Part shown: in pieces, positions 1 through 8,779 of the stretch | Layout: each line of letters begins with the position of its first letter | Numbering within the stretch: the first letter of the stretch is position 1 | Assembly (NCBI GenBank): GCA_041653755.1 | Contig: JBAZEU010000001.1 | Location: forward strand, 1,398-65,397 | Origin: Minisyncoccota bacterium | Lineage (GTDB): Bacteria > Patescibacteriota > Minisyncoccia > UBA6257 > UBA9933 | Direction: 5' to 3' | DNA: 64,000 nt | The notes under the pieces: model-generated | Told to the model about the DNA's origin: nothing | The model's database searches: none | Seen by the model: the letters and a program-made list of their open reading frames with translations, nothing else | Made by a program: the position numbers and the translations under genes

Positions 1-493
1 ACCATTTCACAGAGTTATCGCGGTGGAAAAGGCCTATCAAGCTGAACTGCCGGACGGAACCATCTTCAAAGGAAAGGCGGACCTCATTTATGACGATGGG
101 GAAGGAGACGTTCTTCTGGACTGGAAAACAACCGGAGGTTATTTTCTGGACAGCCGGCCTGACCTTGATGACCAGTTAACCGCCTACAGCATGCTTTCCG
201 GTATTACCAAAGTGGCTTACGGAGTCCTTCTAAAGAAGAAAGAACCGGAAGTAAACTTTTTTTTCGCCGTCAGGAACGAATCGGACTATCTTGATTATCA
301 GGTAAAGGTAATTAAGACGGTGGCTGATATAGAAGCAGGATTTTTTTACCGGAAGCCGTCTCTCTACTGCGGTTTCTGTAATTTTTGCTTTCTGTGTAGG
401 GGCCAGATGGACAAGGCAAAGGAAGAACTTCGTCAATTGCCGGTGGAAGACAGATACAAAAAGTTGGAGTGCAAACAGGTGTGTTTGCTTTGA
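1..493 (+). CDS. PD-(D/E)xK nuclease, Cas4/RecB-C-terminal-like; 5'-truncated by the window edge.
   Basis: The reading frame is open from nt 2. Motif DLIYDD...DWKTT fits a D..E.K nuclease core. A C-terminal cysteine cluster (C-x-x-C-x-x-C-x-x-C) resembles the Cas4/AddB Fe-S cysteines. Confidence 0.45.
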   Translation, partial: PFHRVIAVEKAYQAELPDGTIFKGKADLIYDDGEGDVLLDWKTTGGYFLDSRPDLDDQLTAYSMLSGITKVAYGVLLKKKEPEVNFFFAVRNESDYLDYQVKVIKTVADIEAGFFYRKPSLYCGFCNFCFLCRGQMDKAKEELRQLPVEDRYKKLECKQVCLL

Positions 494-862: not shown

Positions 863-2056
863 ATGTATGATAATGTCGTAGCCCAAGAAATTTCTCGGAA
901 ATATAGGCAAACGCCGTTGGTAAATTTTGCCGGTGTCAGCCAATATACAAAGCTCCAAGATTTGAACTTAAACTGGAGAGAAAGAGATTTACCGGAACGA
1001 GCAAGAACAAAACATGTTCACAGATTACACCCGTACATGGGGAAGTTTATTCCACAGCTCGTGGAAATCTTTTTGCGAAAATATCAACCCCGCTTGGTTT
1101 ACGACCCGTTTTGCGGTTCTGGTACAACATTGGTAGAAGCGAACGCCCTCGGCATCGATTCAATTGGCACCGATATTTCCGCTTTTAACATATTGCTTTC
1201 AAAAGTAAAAACCGACGAATACAATTTTCCTTTACTGGAAAAGGAATTATACGAAATCTTAAGAAGGTTCTGCGAATACAAAAACAAATTTTCAAAAAAT
1301 AAAGGAGTTGATAAATTATTTCAAACAAAAAACGAATACATAAAAACTTGGTTTGCGCCTAACACCCAAAAAGAATTACTTTGTTATTTGAAACTCATCA
1401 AAGATTATACCTATCAAGATTTGTTAAGAATAATCTTGTCACGGTCCGCTCGGTCCGCCCGTTTGGTTACTCACTTTGACTTAGATTTTCCCAAAAAACC
1501 GCAAATCACCCCGTATCAATGCTATAAACACGGGCGAATATGCAAGCCGACCGAAGAGGCATACAAATTCCTAAATCGTTATACAATAGATACTCTTCGA
1601 CGAATAAAGGAATTTTCGCGAATAAGAACAAAGGCGAAAGTCGTTCTTAGTAACGATGATTCTCGATCCCTCAATCTTCCCAAAGGAATCGACATGGTTT
1701 TCACCTCTCCGCCTTATCTTGGTTTAATTGATTACCATGAACAGCATAAATATGCTTACGAACTTCTTGGATTGAAAAACAACGAGACGCGTGAAATTGG
1801 AGCGGCGAAAAACGGCCATTCAGATAAAGCAAAACAAGATTATATTAAAGGTATAAACGATGTCTTATTGCATACGCGTGATTATATGGCTAAAGACGGA
1901 TTGGCAATCATTGTCGTAAACGATAAATTTGGTTTGTACAAGCCTGAAGCTACAGGGTTTAAGGCAATCGGCCGAGTCGAAAGACATGTCAATCGTCGAA
2001 CCGGCAGAAGAAAGGGCGCATTTTACGAGAGCATCCTAATTTGGAAAAAAATATGA
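863..2056 (+). CDS. DNA amino-methyltransferase (N6-adenine or N4-cytosine), alpha-class motif order.
   Basis: AdoMet motif I is DPFCGSGTT near aa 80. Catalytic motif IV is FTSPPY near aa 280. The roughly 200-aa spacing suggests a target-recognition domain between them. Confidence 0.8.
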   Translation: MYDNVVAQEISRKYRQTPLVNFAGVSQYTKLQDLNLNWRERDLPERARTKHVHRLHPYMGKFIPQLVEIFLRKYQPRLVYDPFCGSGTTLVEANALGIDSIGTDISAFNILLSKVKTDEYNFPLLEKELYEILRRFCEYKNKFSKNKGVDKLFQTKNEYIKTWFAPNTQKELLCYLKLIKDYTYQDLLRIILSRSARSARLVTHFDLDFPKKPQITPYQCYKHGRICKPTEEAYKFLNRYTIDTLRRIKEFSRIRTKAKVVLSNDDSRSLNLPKGIDMVFTSPPYLGLIDYHEQHKYAYELLGLKNNETREIGAAKNGHSDKAKQDYIKGINDVLLHTRDYMAKDGLAIIVVNDKFGLYKPEATGFKAIGRVERHVNRRTGRRKGAFYESILIWKKI

Positions 2057-2889
2057 CAAAAGAACAAGAAATGAAGGAAGCCATCCAATCTGTCGTTAAG
2101 CTGATGATGAATAGGGTTATGCAAAAAGTTTTAGTGGAGGATCCGTTCATAAAAGAAGAACATAAAGCTAAAAAACCGCTGTATGCCGCTTTAGTTCCAG
2201 ATGAAATATTTAAAGGGGCGCATTTCGAAAGACGCTTTGTCACTCCTTTCGGTGGTGTCTGGGAGAAACTCGCTATTGTGGCTGCAAACAAAGGTCTTGG
2301 ATATGGAGTAAAGGAGCATAGTATTACAGGAACGGTAAATTCTGAACGGTTAAGAAGAATACAAGAAATTTTAAATAATTTGGAACATTCAGAAAAGGGA
2401 AAGAAAAAGATTAGACCGAATTGGGATAGCGAACTCAAATATATCATGGAAGGTAAAAGCGAGAAAGTTATGCCAACTACCGTTATTTGCGATGTGTACG
2501 CCGAAGATAGAAAAAATGACAAAAAATATGCCTTTGAGTTAAAAGCTCCGCTACCAAATAGTGATCAAACGAAAGTAAGTAAAGAAAAAATTCTCAAGCT
2601 ATACAGCATGGAACCAAGACAAATTGATGAGGCTTATTATGCCTTACCATACAACCCTTTCGGAAAAAGAGAAAACTATTCCTGGAGTTTTCCTGCAAGA
2701 TGGTTTGATATGAAAAATGACAAAGCGGTGTTAATTGGAAATGAATTCTGGGAAAAAATCGGAGGGCTTGGGACATATAAAGCTTTTATTGATGCAATAA
2801 ATGAAATAGGCAAGGAATATAAGGACCGAATTTACAGAGAATTTTTGGGTATTGAACCACCGTCTGATATAGATGCGGATAAGTTGTAA
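2041..2889 (+). CDS. Putative type II restriction endonuclease with a PD-(D/E)xK core, cognate to the upstream methyltransferase.
   Basis: It overlaps the methyltransferase stop by 16 nt, implying translational coupling. Motif VICDVYAED...YAFELKAP fits D...ExK. The rest is unique sequence typical of REases. Confidence 0.5.
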   Translation: MEKNMTKEQEMKEAIQSVVKLMMNRVMQKVLVEDPFIKEEHKAKKPLYAALVPDEIFKGAHFERRFVTPFGGVWEKLAIVAANKGLGYGVKEHSITGTVNSERLRRIQEILNNLEHSEKGKKKIRPNWDSELKYIMEGKSEKVMPTTVICDVYAEDRKNDKKYAFELKAPLPNSDQTKVSKEKILKLYSMEPRQIDEAYYALPYNPFGKRENYSWSFPARWFDMKNDKAVLIGNEFWEKIGGLGTYKAFIDAINEIGKEYKDRIYREFLGIEPPSDIDADKL

Positions 2890-2899
2890 TTTAATATGT

Positions 2900-3682
2900 A
2901 TGGAACCTTTTAAACTACCGGCTCTTGAATCTCTTGCGAAAATCGTCGGTGATCGTTATTCAGGAACAGGAATATCGGAATTTTTTCGTAAAGCAGGTTT
3001 TCCTGACGTTGTTCATGACGGTGGTACAAAATGGCGATTTGTGTACGCTTCCCTTGAAAATCTACAGAATCGGGCTTATGGCCCTATTAACGTGGTAAAA
3101 GTAATTCAACAGTTGTGCGATCCTCAGGAGTATTTTTCAACACCAGATCAACATACGGAAATCTGTGACCAAGTCAATCAGATTCTCGGGTTTTATGGAT
3201 TGCTGGTTGGCGAAGATGGTCGAGTGAGAAAACTTGATGAAAAAGTTACATCGCTTTCAAAGCCTATACCGGAGAATGCAAAAATATTTGATAGCCGTCA
3301 GTTTCACTCCACAATTATTTGCCACGCCCGCAAATTATTCGTCGAAGGTAATTATTTTCACGCCATTTTTGAGTGTTGTAAAGTATATGATAAAGAAGTG
3401 CAAAACAAGTCCCAGATGTCTGGCTATGGATCAAGGCTAATGGAGGAAGCTCTTTCTCTTTCGGGGTCACTTAAACTAAATACTCAACGAACCAGAACAG
3501 AAGTTAATGAGCAAGAAGGTGTTATGCATCTTTCGGTTGGTTTGATGAGGGCTATTAGAAATCCTCAAGCTCATGAACCTGCTCTTGATTGGCCAATCAA
3601 TCGAGAAGAGGCGTTGGATTTACTTTCTTTTTTGAATTTCCTATTTCGAAAATTTGATAAGGTAACATACTTTAAACAATAA
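2900..3682 (+). CDS. HEPN-domain protein (TIGR02391/Ymh-like or Abi-like), a predicted RNase. The start may be the upstream ATG at 2873.
   Basis: A C-terminal Rx4H motif (AIRNPQAHEP) sits at aa 229-234 of the 269-aa ORF. The gene overlaps the REase stop. Confidence 0.55.
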   Translation: MEPFKLPALESLAKIVGDRYSGTGISEFFRKAGFPDVVHDGGTKWRFVYASLENLQNRAYGPINVVKVIQQLCDPQEYFSTPDQHTEICDQVNQILGFYGLLVGEDGRVRKLDEKVTSLSKPIPENAKIFDSRQFHSTIICHARKLFVEGNYFHAIFECCKVYDKEVQNKSQMSGYGSRLMEEALSLSGSLKLNTQRTRTEVNEQEGVMHLSVGLMRAIRNPQAHEPALDWPINREEALDLLSFLNFLFRKFDKVTYFKQ

Positions 3683-3686
3683 ATTT

Positions 3687-6560
3687 ATGAGTACTCCATA
3701 TCCAAAAGGTTCGGAATGGCGAAAATGGGATTTACATGTCCACACACCTTCGTCTGCTTTAGCTCATACCTTGGGTAGCGATTGGGATGGATATGTCAAC
3801 CAACTTATTGATGCTATAAAAAAACACCAGATAGCCGCGATTGCTACCGCTGATTATTTTACAATTGAGGGATACAAAAAGCTGCTTGAATATTACAGTA
3901 AAGACACATGTACGCTCTCCGCAAATAGCAAAAGCGTTCAATGTTATTTGATCCCTGGCATAGAATTACGACTCAACATCTTCAACAGCGAAGAAGAATC
4001 TATAAACTTACATATATTCTTTGATCCAGAATGTTGTTCGAGCGAATTCATTACCCAAAATTTCCTTGAAGCATTAAACATCGTTTATAGGGGATCGGAA
4101 GTATTGCTGAAACAACAGAACCTTTTGGCAATTGGAAAGAGCATTGCCGATAATACACCGGCAGATTTTGGCCAGAGTTTTGGCGCATGCAGCGAAGCCA
4201 CAAAAGATGAATATATTAGAAAAGCACTTGGAGCAATAACCTTAAACTATACCAATATCGATGACGCACTTAAAGGTATTGATAAAATATTTGAAAAACA
4301 AAATCTCCCACCAAAAGCTTATTTAATCGCAGTCGTTGGTAAGGGACACGGTGGTATCAGATCGCTTAAATGGTTTGAAGACAATAAAAGTTTCTCTCGC
4401 GCTGGACTTATCAGAGAACATTTGACCTACCAAACAGATGCCATTTTTTCGAATGATCAGAACGATAGGAATTTCTACCTTGGCAGACGGGAAGATGCTC
4501 CCGCAACGGAGATTCAAAATAGGTTTGATAATCTCAAGCCGTGCATTTGGGGTTCTGATAGTCACTCTCTTGATAAATTACTTCATCCATCTAATGGCAA
4601 TACATTGGATTATACGTGGATCAAGGCGGAGATTTCCTTTGAGGGATTTAAGCAAATTACTTACGAACCAGAGCTGAGGGTAAGGGTTCAGCAAGATAAT
4701 CCAGTTGAAGAAGAAGCTTATGCAAAGATCGAAAAACTGGAATTAGATTTCCCGGATGATCTGAAAATCAAAGACAAAGAATCCGAAGAGGCGATATCCT
4801 TTTGTATTCAAGGCAAACAGGAGGTAAACTTTTCATCAAATTTGACATGTATTATTGGTGGGAGAGGATCGGGTAAAAGTACCTTGGTTCATATCCTTTA
4901 TAACCTTGTTCCAAAAAGAGACGCTGACCGACTTTCTAAAGTCAGTTCCCCTTTGTTCAATTTACAACTTGGGTCGAAAGATGAGCTAGGAAAAATTCGT
5001 TCCCAAACTAAATCTAACATACCATCGAGCACAGAATTTTTCTTACAAAATGAGGTTGAAAAATTCGCAAAAGATGTTAGTGAAATGTCTATCCTAATCA
5101 AGACTCGCCTTTACGGTTTATCTGCCATTGATGATGGACAAAAAAATCTTCAAGAAATTGAAAGTGAGTGGCAAGATACTGCCATAGGAATGGAGGAATT
5201 GATTTCCGCCTATGATGAAATCACAAGGATTGATCAACAAATAGTTTTGGTCGTTAAGCAAAAAGATACATTAAAAAAACAGACCGATGTTATCAGCTCA
5301 AAAGATTATAAAAAACTCCAGAAAGAAATTGAAGAAATAGCTAATGCCATCAGTGCTTTTGATACCTACGAAAAAGAATACAGACGATTGTCGCTTGAGA
5401 TATTGACGCTTATAAAAAGCATCGCCAGGCTCGATTGGACTAAATATGAAGGCCAGTCTATTTTGGTTTCCCTATCCGCCGAACTTGATAAAAAGAAAGC
5501 CGAGATTCAAACATTTTTTGAAGAAACAAACAAAAAATATGTTACCGCAGATTACGCAACTAAATTAGGCGATAAAAAAACGCAACTAAAAAACTTCTTG
5601 AAAGAAAAGGGCCTTTCTCCGGAAAATATTGGAGAAATAGCCACCGCTACGCAGCAAATTGCTGAGTTGGATGAACAAATAAAGATTCTGAGGCAGGAAA
5701 GAATACCACACCAAGAAATCTATGACAGTAAAGAAGGGACACTTCAAACATATAGAGAGGCGTACGCTTCTTACAAAGGAGTGTTCGAATCAGTAGCGAA
5801 TAAGCTTCAATCAAATTTAAGTAATCTTAAATTTGACGGCGAAGAGACAAACATTTCTTTTCAATTTAAGACTAATGATCAATTACTAAAAGACGGAGTT
5901 GCTGATTTTATTAAAAGCCATAACACTTCAAGAATTAATTTAAGAGCCGATAACATTCAAAATGTTTTATTTGGGAATAATGATGTACCCTTTTCAGCTA
6001 TAGTCTCTGATCAATTAAAGATAGTGGCGGCCGTAAATAGTTCAGAGGTGGCCGATGCCCACACTCAAATTATTAGGGATCTAATAGGCGACCCAACTTT
6101 TGTTGAAAAACTTTACTTGCGGATGCAACGATACCACTTTGACATCGAAAACGTCCAAGTGCAAACAAAACTTGGCGAGAAATTTTTACAAAACACGTCG
6201 TTTGGCGAGAGATGTGGAATCGTAATTGCTATTGTTCTTGTTGCCGGAACAAATCCTATAGTAATTGACCAACCAGAGGATAATCTGGACGGGAAATATA
6301 TTTCGAAAGTTCTTGTTCCTTTAATCCGTACTCAAAAACATAAACGCCAAATTGTACTTGTTACAAGAGATGCAAATATTGTAATTGGTGGCGATTCAGA
6401 ACTGATATTAATTCTTGATAAAGAAAACCATGGTTCAGTATTACTGCCTGCAACTATCGAGAATAAAGTTATTCGATCCAAATATATTTGGATTCTAGAC
6501 GGTGGCGAAAGAGCATTCAAAGCTCGTGAAGCAAAATACTGTATTCACAAAGCAGCATAA
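3687..6560 (+). CDS. PHP phosphoesterase fused to an SMC/Rad50/SbcC-like ABC ATPase with a long coiled coil. From memory, possibly the TrlF-family architecture.
   Basis: PHP motifs are WDLHVHTPSS, GIELR, NLHIFF and WGSDSH in the N-terminal ~330 aa. Walker A is IIGGRGSGKST at aa 391-399. A coiled-coil-like charged region spans about aa 430-800. Signature-like SFGERCG lies at aa 838-844, Walker B/D-loop VIDQPEDNLD at about aa 860, and H-loop-like VLVTRD near aa 890. Confidence 0.75.
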   Translation: MSTPYPKGSEWRKWDLHVHTPSSALAHTLGSDWDGYVNQLIDAIKKHQIAAIATADYFTIEGYKKLLEYYSKDTCTLSANSKSVQCYLIPGIELRLNIFNSEEESINLHIFFDPECCSSEFITQNFLEALNIVYRGSEVLLKQQNLLAIGKSIADNTPADFGQSFGACSEATKDEYIRKALGAITLNYTNIDDALKGIDKIFEKQNLPPKAYLIAVVGKGHGGIRSLKWFEDNKSFSRAGLIREHLTYQTDAIFSNDQNDRNFYLGRREDAPATEIQNRFDNLKPCIWGSDSHSLDKLLHPSNGNTLDYTWIKAEISFEGFKQITYEPELRVRVQQDNPVEEEAYAKIEKLELDFPDDLKIKDKESEEAISFCIQGKQEVNFSSNLTCIIGGRGSGKSTLVHILYNLVPKRDADRLSKVSSPLFNLQLGSKDELGKIRSQTKSNIPSSTEFFLQNEVEKFAKDVSEMSILIKTRLYGLSAIDDGQKNLQEIESEWQDTAIGMEELISAYDEITRIDQQIVLVVKQKDTLKKQTDVISSKDYKKLQKEIEEIANAISAFDTYEKEYRRLSLEILTLIKSIARLDWTKYEGQSILVSLSAELDKKKAEIQTFFEETNKKYVTADYATKLGDKKTQLKNFLKEKGLSPENIGEIATATQQIAELDEQIKILRQERIPHQEIYDSKEGTLQTYREAYASYKGVFESVANKLQSNLSNLKFDGEETNISFQFKTNDQLLKDGVADFIKSHNTSRINLRADNIQNVLFGNNDVPFSAIVSDQLKIVAAVNSSEVADAHTQIIRDLIGDPTFVEKLYLRMQRYHFDIENVQVQTKLGEKFLQNTSFGERCGIVIAIVLVAGTNPIVIDQPEDNLDGKYISKVLVPLIRTQKHKRQIVLVTRDANIVIGGDSELILILDKENHGSVLLPATIENKVIRSKYIWILDGGERAFKAREAKYCIHKAA

Positions 6561-6708: not shown

Positions 6709-8241
6709 ATGAATTTTTCTAAATCACGCAAAGGTTTCACCCTCATAGAACTTCTAATCGTGATAGGTATCGTAGCAGTTCTAGCCGTCGTCGTCTTAAC
6801 AGTTCTCAATCCAGTGGAATTCCTCAAAAAAAGCAGGGACTCTAGGCGTATGGTAGACCTCCAGACCTTGGATAAAGCCCTAAGGTTAGCTGATTTTGAC
6901 AATATCTCCATGGGAACAGCCAATGTGGTATATGTTTCCATCCCTGATGACACAGCAGCCACCTCAACCTGTCCTACCCTATCCTTACCAGCTTTACCAG
7001 GAGGCTGGACTTATCAATGCTCTAATACTACTAACTACCGAAAAGCTGACGGTACTGGCTGGGTACCTGTTAACTTCACCTCTCTTACCACAGTTCCCAA
7101 TCCTTTAACCTTACTACCAGTTGATCCCACCAACAGTACTTCCACCAATCTCTACTATTCATATGTCTCTGGTAGTTGGGAACTTACTGCCTTATTTGAA
7201 ACCACTGGTTACCAAACCAAATACGCAGCCAGCGACAATGGCACTTCCACTGTCCTATTTGAAGTGGGCAACCATCTTAAGATTACCCCTAATGCGGTAG
7301 CTTCAAGGACTAATACCGGAGGAGGGGGAGGCGGAAGTTCCTACACCTTAACCTTTAATACCAGTCCTACTTATTCAGGTTCGGTTACCTTTGACGGTTC
7401 TTCCTACGCCAATGGCGATACTGCTTCCAAATCTTCAGGTTCTTACAATATTTCTGGCACCCCTGGTTCAGGCCGATCCTTTTCCTACTGGTCTCCTACA
7501 GGGATGACTGTCACTGACACCAGTACCTTAAGCACTTCTGCCACTGTCTCAGGCGCTGGCAGTTTATCCATGATTCAGGTTCCTGACTCATACACCAAAT
7601 TACTCCTACATATGGATGGGACGAATGGGTCAACTAGTTTCCCTGATAGTTCTACCGCGGCCCATACGGTTACAGCTAATGGAACCGCCCAAGTAACTAC
7701 TGCCCAACAAAAATTTGGGACAGGATCGGTTCAATGTAATGGAAGTGGTAATTATCTTACTTCTGCTGATAGTGATGATTGGTATTTTGGTACCAATGAT
7801 TTTACAGTTGATTTTTGGGCAAGAAATACAGGCGGAACTAATGTGTATTTAGTTAATCAATGGCACATTAACAGCGGTGGTGTAAGTATGAGTTGGGCTA
7901 TTCTTTGGAATAGTAGCAACGGAGTGCTTATTTTACTTAGAGATCATCCTGGAGCTTGGAATGATTTTAATCAATACAATACTAGTGGGATAACTATGTC
8001 TAGTAATACTTGGTACCATATAGCATTAGTAAGATACAACAACTATGTAGATATTTATGTTAACGGTACGTCTTACTTACACCAGGCTTATTCTCTTTCT
8101 CTCCAAAACAGTGACATGAATTTGGGTATTTGTGATTATATGGGAGCCCAAGGATTTACTGGGCAAATAGATGAAGTTCGTATTTCTAAAGGTATAGCTC
8201 GTTGGACTTCAAACTTTACTCCGCCAACAGCGCCGTATTAA
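6709..8241 (+). CDS. Type IV pilin-like protein (class III signal peptide) with a large S/T/G-rich body and a C-terminal LamG-like lectin domain.
   Basis: The N-terminus SRKG|FTLIELLIVIGIVAVLA carries a prepilin cleavage/methylation motif with E at +5. The C-terminal approx 200 aa (LLLHMDG...FTVDFWAR...RISKGIARWTSNFTPPTAPY) is a concanavalin/LamG_3-like jellyroll and is paralogous to the C-terminus of the 55820 ORF. Confidence 0.7.
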   Translation: MNFSKSRKGFTLIELLIVIGIVAVLAVVVLTVLNPVEFLKKSRDSRRMVDLQTLDKALRLADFDNISMGTANVVYVSIPDDTAATSTCPTLSLPALPGGWTYQCSNTTNYRKADGTGWVPVNFTSLTTVPNPLTLLPVDPTNSTSTNLYYSYVSGSWELTALFETTGYQTKYAASDNGTSTVLFEVGNHLKITPNAVASRTNTGGGGGGSSYTLTFNTSPTYSGSVTFDGSSYANGDTASKSSGSYNISGTPGSGRSFSYWSPTGMTVTDTSTLSTSATVSGAGSLSMIQVPDSYTKLLLHMDGTNGSTSFPDSSTAAHTVTANGTAQVTTAQQKFGTGSVQCNGSGNYLTSADSDDWYFGTNDFTVDFWARNTGGTNVYLVNQWHINSGGVSMSWAILWNSSNGVLILLRDHPGAWNDFNQYNTSGITMSSNTWYHIALVRYNNYVDIYVNGTSYLHQAYSLSLQNSDMNLGICDYMGAQGFTGQIDEVRISKGIARWTSNFTPPTAPY

Positions 8242-8290: not shown

Positions 8291-8779
8291 ATGTCTCAAA
8301 ACTGGCAATATTTATTTAAAATTGCATACACCAAAGCACAAGAAAGCACTAATCCGTCTACCCAGAACGGAGCTATCCTGATTGACGATAATGGGAACAT
8401 TGTTCTTTCTGCAATCAATAGTTTCCCTGATGGAGTAATAGAAACACAAGAACGGCGAAAGAAACTCTTACGTTATAAATTCAGTGTACACGCAGAACGA
8501 AACGTACTTTACCAAGCCGCACTTCTTGGAATAAAGACAAAAGGGCTTACTATGGTATGTCCGTGGGCGGCATGCAGTGATTGCGCCCAGGCCATAATTC
8601 AAACAGGCATCAGAAGATTGGTAACTCATAAACAAGCTCTTGATAGATCTGATACATGGCAAGAGGACATAGAGCTTGCTTTTATAATGCTTCGCGAAGC
8701 CGGAGTTGAAATTATTATTTTCGACGGAAAGATAGGAGTAGGTAAAATTTTGCGAAGTGGAGAAGTTTGGGAACCATAA
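8291..8779 (+). CDS. dCMP/cytidine deaminase family protein (ComEB-like).
   Basis: Zinc-binding motifs are present: HAE (VHAERN) and PCxxC-like CPWAACSDC. Confidence 0.65.
   Translation: MSQNWQYLFKIAYTKAQESTNPSTQNGAILIDDNGNIVLSAINSFPDGVIETQERRKKLLRYKFSVHAERNVLYQAALLGIKTKGLTMVCPWAACSDCAQAIIQTGIRRLVTHKQALDRSDTWQEDIELAFIMLREAGVEIIIFDGKIGVGKILRSGEVWEP

What the first reader, a model, noticed from the sequence alone, without database searches (positions are those of the whole stretch)
3687..6560. Single-chain SbcCD/Mre11-Rad50 analogue with a PHP domain in place of the calcineurin-like nuclease
The N-terminal 330 aa carry the four PHP metal-binding motifs: HVH at aa 16-18, GIE near aa 91, NLH near aa 108 and GSDSH near aa 289-293. 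These are fused to an ABC ATPase head that is split by a roughly 400-aa helical insertion. Walker A is GRGSGKST at aa 392-399. The C-terminus carries a signature-like SFGERCG, Walker B/D-loop VIDQPEDNLD and an H-loop-like VLVTRD. PHP domains act as 3'-5' exonucleases in PolX and PolIII, so a PHP-Rad50 fusion would be a self-contained, ATP-driven, DNA-end-processing nuclease. From memory, this architecture may correspond to what NCBI and Aravind's group call TrlF-family ATPases. If so, its link here to R-M and HEPN genes would give that family a defence context.
Basis: partly seen in the sequence, partly recalled or inferred. Interest (0 to 1): 0.75.

Follow-up and report, generated by a model that had tools for sequence, protein, structure and literature searches.

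The report
TrlF-family PHP–ABC defence nuclease gene
The gene encodes a known type of bacterial protein (TrlF family, a relative of the anti-phage protein Ppl) that joins a PHP metal-dependent nuclease domain to an SMC/Rad50-like ATP-binding head; here it is the last gene of a restriction-modification operon, so it is an ordinary new member of a known family with one mildly interesting twist.

The parts
3687..6560 (+). TrlF-family gene, 957 aa. It is identical to NCBI MAG protein WC297_00040 from Candidatus Paceibacterota, annotated there as 'hypothetical protein'.
3687..4721 (+). PHP domain, aa 1-345. Metal-ligand motifs are H17/H19 (nt 3735-3743), E93 (3963-3965), H109 (4011-4013) and D291/H293 (4557-4565). 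Y57 stands where canonical PHP and Ppl have His. An insertion of about 100 aa lies at aa 113-210.
4722..5075 (+). ABC head N-lobe, aa 346-463. Walker A is G391-T399 (nt 4857-4883) and the Q-loop is Q454 (nt 5046-5048).
5076..5819 (+). Long-helix (coiled-coil) insertion, aa 464-711. It has four helices of 43-67 residues, no Cys and therefore no zinc hook.
5820..6143 (+). Mixed, mostly helical sub-domain between the coiled coil and the C-lobe, aa 712-819.
6144..6557 (+). ABC head C-lobe, aa 820-957. Signature S838-FGER (nt 6198-6212). Walker B/D-loop V859-IDQPEDNLD-868 (nt 6261-6290), with Q862 at the catalytic-Glu position. The H-loop position holds R894 (nt 6366-6368).
2873..3682 (+). Upstream neighbour, 4 nt before the TrlF start. 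A 269-aa Hypoth_Ymh/TIGR02391 (HEPN-type) protein with a full-length match to PADLOC PD-Lambda-3_B.
2041..2889 (+). Type II restriction endonuclease of the TdeIII family. Its ends overlap both neighbouring ORFs.
863..2056 (+). Type II N6/N4 DNA methyltransferase, first gene of the co-directional four-gene block.

Best explanation
The gene encodes a TrlF-family protein: a single chain that fuses an N-terminal PHP metal-dependent phosphoesterase to an SMC/Rad50-like ABC nucleotide-binding head split by a helical coiled-coil insertion. It is a distant homologue, not an orthologue, of the anti-phage protein Ppl. The most likely function is the one reported for Ppl. The PHP domain is a metal-dependent 3'-5' exonuclease acting on DNA ends. 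The ABC head, probably dimerising through nucleotide like other ABC heads, acts mainly as a nucleotide sensor or gate rather than a motor, so the nuclease is held off at normal NTP levels and released during infection. Here the gene is the last cistron of a tightly packed block (methyltransferase, TdeIII endonuclease, HEPN/Ymh protein, TrlF), so it is expressed as part of a defence locus. Shown here: family membership, both folds, conservation of the motifs, homology to Ppl, and the defence/R-M neighbourhood. Inferred: the nuclease activity, its polarity, the NTP gating and dimerisation.
Against: No biochemistry exists for any TrlF-family protein in the literature I could search. The identity to Ppl is low: 17% in a global alignment, and NF042955 gives 111 bits against a cutoff of 1000. 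Transfer of mechanism from Ppl is therefore an inference. I could read the Ppl primary paper only through citations. Y57 replaces a canonical PHP His ligand in most TrlF proteins, and H293 is replaced in 7 of 28 close relatives. The active site may therefore differ from three-metal PHP exonucleases, and some orthologues may be inactive. Some of the best PHP structural neighbours are nucleotide phosphatases (3e0f/3o0f) rather than nucleases. The pLDDT of the C-lobe is only 55-75. Dimerisation was not modelled.
Confidence: 0.6

Rival explanations
1. R-M accessory nuclease. In this Arg-H-loop subclade TrlF is not a stand-alone sensor like Ppl. It is a functional subunit or partner of the adjacent restriction system, and it degrades the DNA ends that the restriction enzyme produces on unmodified invader DNA. 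That would do the job RecBCD does after restriction in E. coli.
For: Of 12 independent contexts among relatives with at least 41% identity, 5 have a canonical R-M system directly beside TrlF and co-directional with it. These are type II here, type III in L006 and L008, type I in L092, and L009, where TrlF sits between HsdR and HsdS. L093 has the R-M-like DUF1156/DUF499 pair upstream. Gaps are small: 4, 18, 36 and 60 nt, or overlapping. Across 45 loci with co-directional upstream genes, R-M domains are the most frequent families. Ppl is reported to need endonuclease-generated 3'-OH ends.
Against: The R-M types differ, so a specific protein-protein partnership is unlikely. Defence genes cluster with R-M systems anyway. 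Other close homologues have no R-M neighbour: L004, L088 and L090. E. coli plasmid TrlF and Ppl are solitary genes. No enrichment statistic against a background was computed.
Confidence: 0.2
2. Housekeeping DNA-repair or end-processing enzyme: a true functional analogue of SbcCD/Mre11-Rad50, serving the host chromosome of a small-genome CPR bacterium.
For: The architecture parallels nuclease plus a Rad50-like ABC head with a coiled coil. Rad50 structures are among the Foldseek hits. Some depositors annotate relatives as 'DNA repair protein/ATPase' or 'exonuclease SbcC'.
Against: The distribution is patchy and mobile: 1,133 plasmids carry relatives and 812 of those are conjugative. Neighbourhoods are non-syntenic and rich in R-M, CBASS, TIR, PLD, relaxase and resolvase genes. 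There is no zinc hook. Gln sits at the catalytic-Glu position and Arg at the H-loop. The characterised relative Ppl is an anti-phage protein.
Confidence: 0.07
3. The PHP domain hydrolyses nucleotides rather than DNA, for example (d)NTPs or signalling or bisphosphate nucleotides. The protein would then defend by depleting or clearing nucleotides, or would serve competition between mobile elements (plasmid restriction, as Wadjet does), rather than degrading phage DNA.
For: The two best Foldseek hits are the BAD_1165 phosphoesterase (3e0f/3o0f), a small-molecule PHP enzyme. The best full-length matches are Wadjet JetC heads. Many relatives are carried on conjugative plasmids.
Against: EndoQ, RNase AM and the Pol III/PolC PHP domains, which are all nucleic-acid enzymes, score equally well. 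Ppl is reported as a DNA exonuclease. No JetA, JetB or JetD partners are present.
Confidence: 0.08

Closest known systems
TrlF family AAA-like ATPase (NCBIfam NF045780)
   Same: Full-length match above the curated cutoff. Same length and same order of PHP motifs, Walker A, DQPED Walker B/D-loop and C-terminal LDGG-x-x-AF motif as the RefSeq-annotated TrlF proteins of E. coli, Enterobacter and Burkholderia plasmids.
   Different: Identity to the plasmid TrlF proteins is only 24-27%. The window protein belongs to a separate, mostly metagenomic subclade with Arg in place of the H-loop His and an invariant SFGERCG signature. I found no published experimental work on TrlF, and I could not find the origin of the name.
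Ppl (anti-phage protein; Gao et al. 2020; Xu et al. Mol Cell 2026; NCBIfam NF042955, PADLOC PDLC02208)
   Same: Same architecture: single gene, N-terminal PHP domain, ABC/SMC-like NTPase split by a helical insertion. Same DQPED-x-LD motif. hhalign probability 99.8%. It works in defence as an NTP-gated 3'-5' exonuclease.
   Different: The window protein scores far below the Ppl model cutoff, 111 against 1000 bits, and about 17% global identity. Ppl keeps the canonical D-H ligand pair (SDHN) and the H-loop His (VSHS). The window protein has D-Y and T-R-D. Its PHP domain carries an extra insertion of about 100 aa.
SbcCD / Mre11-Rad50
   Same: A phosphoesterase nuclease combined with an ABC ATPase whose Walker A and signature/Walker B lobes are separated by an antiparallel helical insertion. 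Rad50 heads are recovered by Foldseek at E about 1e-5.
   Different: The nuclease is a PHP domain (TIM-barrel-like), not a calcineurin-type domain. The protein is one polypeptide, not two. The helical insertion is short (about 250 aa) with no CxxC zinc hook. Gln stands at the catalytic-Glu position. JetC, MukB and SMC match better than Rad50.
Spaf_1101 family AAA-like ATPase (NCBIfam NF045781)
   Same: Homologous C-terminal two-thirds: 141.9 bits, best stretch aa 631-951.
   Different: The score is below cutoff (141.9 against 475). Distant relatives in the loci fetched, including two Streptococcus loci (L085, L087), have degenerate PHP motifs (ALQVN for DLHVH) and often a Schlafen AlbA_2 partner gene. 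I suspect, but did not test, that these are the Spaf_1101 family. The window protein keeps the PHP ligands.

Membership tests
TrlF family (NF045780) | Score at or above NCBIfam's curated whole-protein cutoff, with end-to-end coverage of the model. | tested here: met
   404.5 bits against a cutoff of 350; aa 7-951 aligned to model positions 1-943 of 944.
TrlF family (NF045780) | N-terminal PHP-fold domain followed by a split ABC/SMC-like P-loop head. | tested here: met
Ppl (NF042955 / PADLOC Ppl) | Score at or above the curated cutoff of the Ppl equivalog model. | tested here: not met
   111.5 bits against a cutoff of 1000. PADLOC Ppl gives 85.7 bits, best stretch limited to the C-terminal aa 835-947.
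Ppl (NF042955 / PADLOC Ppl) | Homology and shared domain order with E. coli Ppl. | tested here: met
   hhalign probability 99.8%, E 1e-27; shared N-terminal PHP motifs.
Ppl (NF042955 / PADLOC Ppl) | NTP-inhibited 3'-5' ssDNA exonuclease activity and phage protection. | not testable with these tools
   Known only for E. coli Ppl, from the literature.
PHP superfamily | PHP (distorted TIM-barrel) fold. | tested here: met
PHP superfamily | Complete set of canonical metal ligands: HxH, D/H, E, H, H, DxH. | tested here: inconclusive
   H17, H19, E93, H109, D291 and H293 are present. The His of the canonical 'DH' motif is Y57. Pfam PF02811 gives no hit on this protein but does hit homologues.
SbcCD / Mre11-Rad50 | Calcineurin-like (Mre11/SbcD) phosphoesterase nuclease. 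| tested here: not met
   No Metallophos hit on this protein or on the neighbouring proteins scanned. The nuclease domain is PHP.
SbcCD / Mre11-Rad50 | CxxC zinc hook at the coiled-coil apex. | tested here: not met
   No Cys between aa 388 and 843.
SbcCD / Mre11-Rad50 | ABC head with Walker A and signature/Walker B lobes separated by an antiparallel coiled coil. | tested here: met
SbcCD / Mre11-Rad50 | Catalytic Glu directly after the Walker B Asp, and an H-loop His. | tested here: not met
   D861-Q862, and T893-R894.

The most novel reading that the evidence does not exclude
The Arg-H-loop subclade of TrlF, to which this gene belongs, has become a built-in accessory of restriction-modification operons of all three main types. 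It would act as a nucleotide-gated PHP exonuclease that finishes off DNA ends made by the neighbouring restriction enzyme. That is a RecBCD-like 'second hit' encoded within the R-M locus, which could matter especially in small-genome CPR bacteria.
Probability: 0.2. Interest if true: 0.55.

Novelty: new member of a known kind. Interest (0 to 1): 0.3.

Why it matters
As annotation, this turns a 'hypothetical protein' in a Candidatus Paceibacterota MAG into a TrlF-family, Ppl-like defence nuclease. It also shows a four-gene defence block (type II R-M, a HEPN/PD-lambda-3_B-like protein, TrlF) in a CPR genome. More generally, two features point to a TrlF lineage whose regulation and partners differ from the one characterised relative, Ppl: the clean His-to-Arg switch at the ABC H-loop, and the repeated placement of this subclade at the end of type I, II and III R-M operons. 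If the R-M coupling is functional, it would be a simple and testable example of two defence layers wired into one operon. None of this changes the basic picture, because the PHP-ABC architecture and its anti-phage role are already established.

Tried and rejected
1. Pfam on the window protein gave no PHP hit, only sub-threshold SMC_N and AAA matches. Sequence-profile evidence for PHP therefore had to be replaced by structure prediction.
2. PDB sequence searches with the single protein and with the family profile found only weak matches: ABC-transporter and AriA P-loop regions, plus one spurious coiled-coil hit. No Ppl or TrlF structure appeared in the PDB copy by sequence or by Foldseek.
3. 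Literature searches for 'TrlF' returned only unrelated TRLFS spectroscopy papers and other noise. The origin of the name and any experimental work on TrlF remain unfound.
4. The Ppl primary paper (Mol Cell 2026) and Krishnan et al. NAR 2020 are not held.
5. I tested whether the Ymh/HEPN neighbour is a conserved partner of TrlF. tblastn found no homologue in any of the 93 fetched loci, so I rejected a dedicated HEPN-TrlF two-gene system.
6. I tested whether the downstream pilin/LamG gene is linked. There is a 148-nt gap, no recurrence in other loci and no defence-model hit, so I rejected it as a partner.
7. I looked for a zinc hook or Mre11-like partner and found none.
8. Base composition across 1-20 kb shows no clear island boundary, and there is no tRNA within 18 kb.
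9. The promoter and terminator scans were no better than shuffled sequence.
Full report
**1. Observation**

Window 3687..6560 (+) is a single intact ORF of 957 aa with an ATG start.
- H17-V-H19.
- G91-I-E93 and N107-L-H109.
- G289-S-D-S-H293.
- Walker A G392-RGSGKST-399.
- S838-FGERCG.
- V859-IDQPEDNLD-868.
- V890-LVTRD-895.

This is a real gene. The identical protein is deposited as a 'hypothetical protein' of a Candidatus Paceibacterota MAG, and about 1,900 homologues were scored at E <= 1e-5.

**2. What it is**

NCBIfam's curated TrlF-family model matches end to end at 404.5 bits against a cutoff of 350. Weaker, sub-cutoff matches go to the Spaf_1101 family and to the anti-phage protein Ppl (PADLOC Ppl). 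Pfam sees only sub-threshold SMC_N/AAA matches and no PHP hit, so I tested the folds directly.

- **ABC head.** The full-length model has pLDDT 82. It matches JetC, MukB, SMC, Rad50, RecN and Lamassu LmuACB (9hqx_B) heads with their coiled coils (E 6e-9 to 4e-4).
- **Homology to Ppl.** A 25-sequence family profile aligns to E. coli Ppl (WP_015059139, taken from plasmid pM214_FII) with hhalign probability 99.8% and E 1e-27 over aa 263-924. The two N-termini share the same PHP motif series.
- **Distribution.** RefSeq annotates plasmid relatives as 'TrlF family AAA-like ATPase' or 'anti-phage protein Ppl'. Relatives occur on 1,133 plasmids, 812 of them conjugative.

**3. Anatomy and conservation**

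| Region | Residues | Notes |
|---|---|---|
| PHP domain | aa 1-345 | carries an insertion of about 100 aa at 113-210 |
| ABC N-lobe | aa 346-463 | Walker A, Q454 |
| Long helices | aa 464-711 | four helices of 43-67 residues |
| Mixed, mostly helical sub-domain | aa 712-819 | |
| ABC C-lobe | aa 820-957 | |

The layout comes from the secondary structure of the model. I compared the window protein with 105 other distinct relatives: 28 sequences with at least 40% identity, counting the window protein itself, and 78 below 30%.

- E93, D291, K397, D861, Q862, E864 and D868 are invariant or nearly so.
- H17 and H19 are kept in 26 of 28 close and about 65 of 78 distant relatives.
- H109 is kept in 23 of 28 and 77 of 78.
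- H293 is kept in 21 of 28 and 66 of 78.

A minority has lost ligands, and one distant clade has a clearly degenerate PHP site. Three departures from textbook motifs matter for mechanism:

- Y57 stands where canonical PHP enzymes and Ppl have His. This holds for most TrlF proteins.
- The residue after the Walker B Asp is Gln in all 106 sequences (D-Q-P-E-D). In Rad50 and SMC, from my own knowledge of those families, a Glu-to-Gln change at this position traps the ATP-bound state.
- The H-loop His is Arg (T-R-D) in 28 of 28 close relatives and His in 78 of 78 others. This is a clean marker of the subclade.

There is no Cys between aa 388 and 843, so there is no zinc hook.

**4. Surroundings**

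Four co-directional ORFs are packed together:
- an N6/N4 methyltransferase (863-2056);
- a TdeIII-family type II endonuclease (2041-2889);
- a Hypoth_Ymh/TIGR02391 HEPN-type protein (2873-3682);
- TrlF, which starts 4 nt after the Ymh stop codon.

The Ymh protein matches PADLOC PD-Lambda-3_B over its full length at 122 bits. PD-lambda-3 is an abortive-infection system (PMC13190303). Downstream, after 148 nt, come a pilin/LamG gene, a dCMP-deaminase-like gene and pyrF, all unrelated to defence. The Ymh gene is not a conserved partner: no homologue lies next to TrlF in 93 other loci.

R-M adjacency, by contrast, recurs. The contexts of relatives with at least 41% identity are:

| Locus | Neighbours of TrlF |
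|---|---|
| window | type II MTase, TdeIII REase, HEPN/Ymh upstream |
| L006 | type III Mod, Res and UvrD upstream |
| L008 | type III Mod, Res upstream; PDDEXK_1 downstream |
| L092 | type I HsdM, HsdS, HsdR upstream |
| L009 | TrlF lies between type I HsdR and HsdS |
| L093 | DUF1156 and DUF499 upstream; TIR and PLD downstream |
| P0051 contig | MTaX1, a helicase and an SMC-like ATPase upstream |
| L091 | a convergent N6/N4 methyltransferase nearby |
| L090 | PDDEXK_1 upstream; CBASS downstream; resolvase and TraG nearby |
| L088 | HNH upstream |
| L004 | no informative neighbour |
| L089 | contig ends upstream; nothing informative |

Across all fetched loci, the commonest Pfam families among co-directional upstream genes are R-M parts: N6_Mtase, ResIII, Eco57I, MmeI_Mtase, N6_N4_Mtase, EcoEI_R_C, RE_endonuc, Methylase_S, HpaII and XhoI. 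The commonest downstream families are Schlafen AlbA_2/HATPase_c_4, TIR_2 and AAA_21.

**5. How it most likely works**

The only characterised relative is Ppl. It was listed as an uncharacterised single-gene ATPase+PHP defence in 2024 (PMC11482910). It is now described as a ssDNA 3'-5' exonuclease. NTPs bound to both its PHP and NTPase domains keep it off. Phage-induced NTP depletion together with 3'-OH ends made by phage homing endonucleases turns it on (review PMC12904381; Xu et al., Mol Cell 2026;86:180, cited; the primary paper is not held).

The folds, the motifs and the universal Gln at the catalytic-Glu position are all shared, so I take the same scheme as the best model here. The PHP domain is the nuclease, the ABC head is a nucleotide-dependent gate, and DNA ends are the substrate. 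The Arg at the H-loop argues further against a fast ATP motor in this subclade. Folds, motifs, homology and context are shown. Activity, polarity, gating and dimerisation are inferred.

The main rival is that in this subclade the enzyme works downstream of the neighbouring restriction enzyme. That view builds on the same chemistry and is attractive because of the operon embedding, but it has not been tested statistically. A housekeeping SbcCD-like repair role is unlikely given the mobile, patchy, defence-island distribution. A nucleotide-phosphatase role for the PHP domain cannot be excluded from structure alone.

**6. Comparison and novelty**

The protein is a member of the TrlF family (membership test met). 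It is a homologue of Ppl but not a member of that family (111 bits against a cutoff of 1000). It resembles SbcCD/Mre11-Rad50 only in general architecture. It lacks the Mre11 fold, the hook, the catalytic Glu and the H-loop His. The framing as a new 'self-contained ATP-driven' machine that would newly give the family a defence context was not, because that context is already established for Ppl. I rate it a new member of a known kind, interest about 0.3. The Arg-H-loop, R-M-embedded subclade is the only lead worth following.

Noticed in passing
window 2873-3682 (+): A 269-aa Hypoth_Ymh/TIGR02391 (HEPN-type) protein matches PADLOC PD-Lambda-3_B over its full length (122 bits). It is wedged between a TdeIII restriction endonuclease and TrlF, overlapping the first and ending 4 nt before the second. 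No PD-Lambda-3_A partner was detected. It may be an R-M-linked HEPN effector.
   Followed up: partly
window 6366-6368 (R894); A1 and loci L004-L009: The ABC H-loop His is replaced by Arg (T-R-D) in 28 of 28 sequences with at least 40% identity (window included), and is His in 78 of 78 more distant TrlF/Ppl proteins. The same clade has an invariant SFGERCG signature.
   Followed up: partly
loci L041, L067-L070, L076-L078, L085, L087: A distant clade, which includes two Streptococcus loci, has degenerate PHP motifs: ALQVN for DLHVH and AKD[IV]x for GSDAH. In 7 loci it is followed by a conserved Schlafen AlbA_2 + HATPase_c_4 gene of about 410 aa. This suggests a PHP-dead sensor paired with a separate effector.
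   Followed up: partly
L009:925-8288: In a 41%-identical relative the TrlF gene sits inside a type I R-M operon, between HsdR (EcoEI_R_C/ResIII) and an HsdS specificity gene.
   Followed up: partly
window 23-493 (+); L008:8873-9622; L090:4903-5691: PD-(D/E)XK (PDDEXK_1) genes lie near TrlF in the window and in two close-homologue loci. The three are not detectably similar to each other by tblastn.
   Followed up: partly
window 6709-8241 (+): A 510-aa protein with a prepilin N-terminal methylation motif and a Laminin_G_3/ConA-like domain lies directly downstream of the defence block. It is probably a large pseudopilin or adhesin of the CPR host.
   Followed up: no
window 8291-8779 (+): A 162-aa dCMP/cytidine deaminase-fold protein has a weak partial match to the anti-phage dCTP deaminase models, far below cutoff. 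It is most likely a housekeeping ComEB/dCMP deaminase.
   Followed up: no
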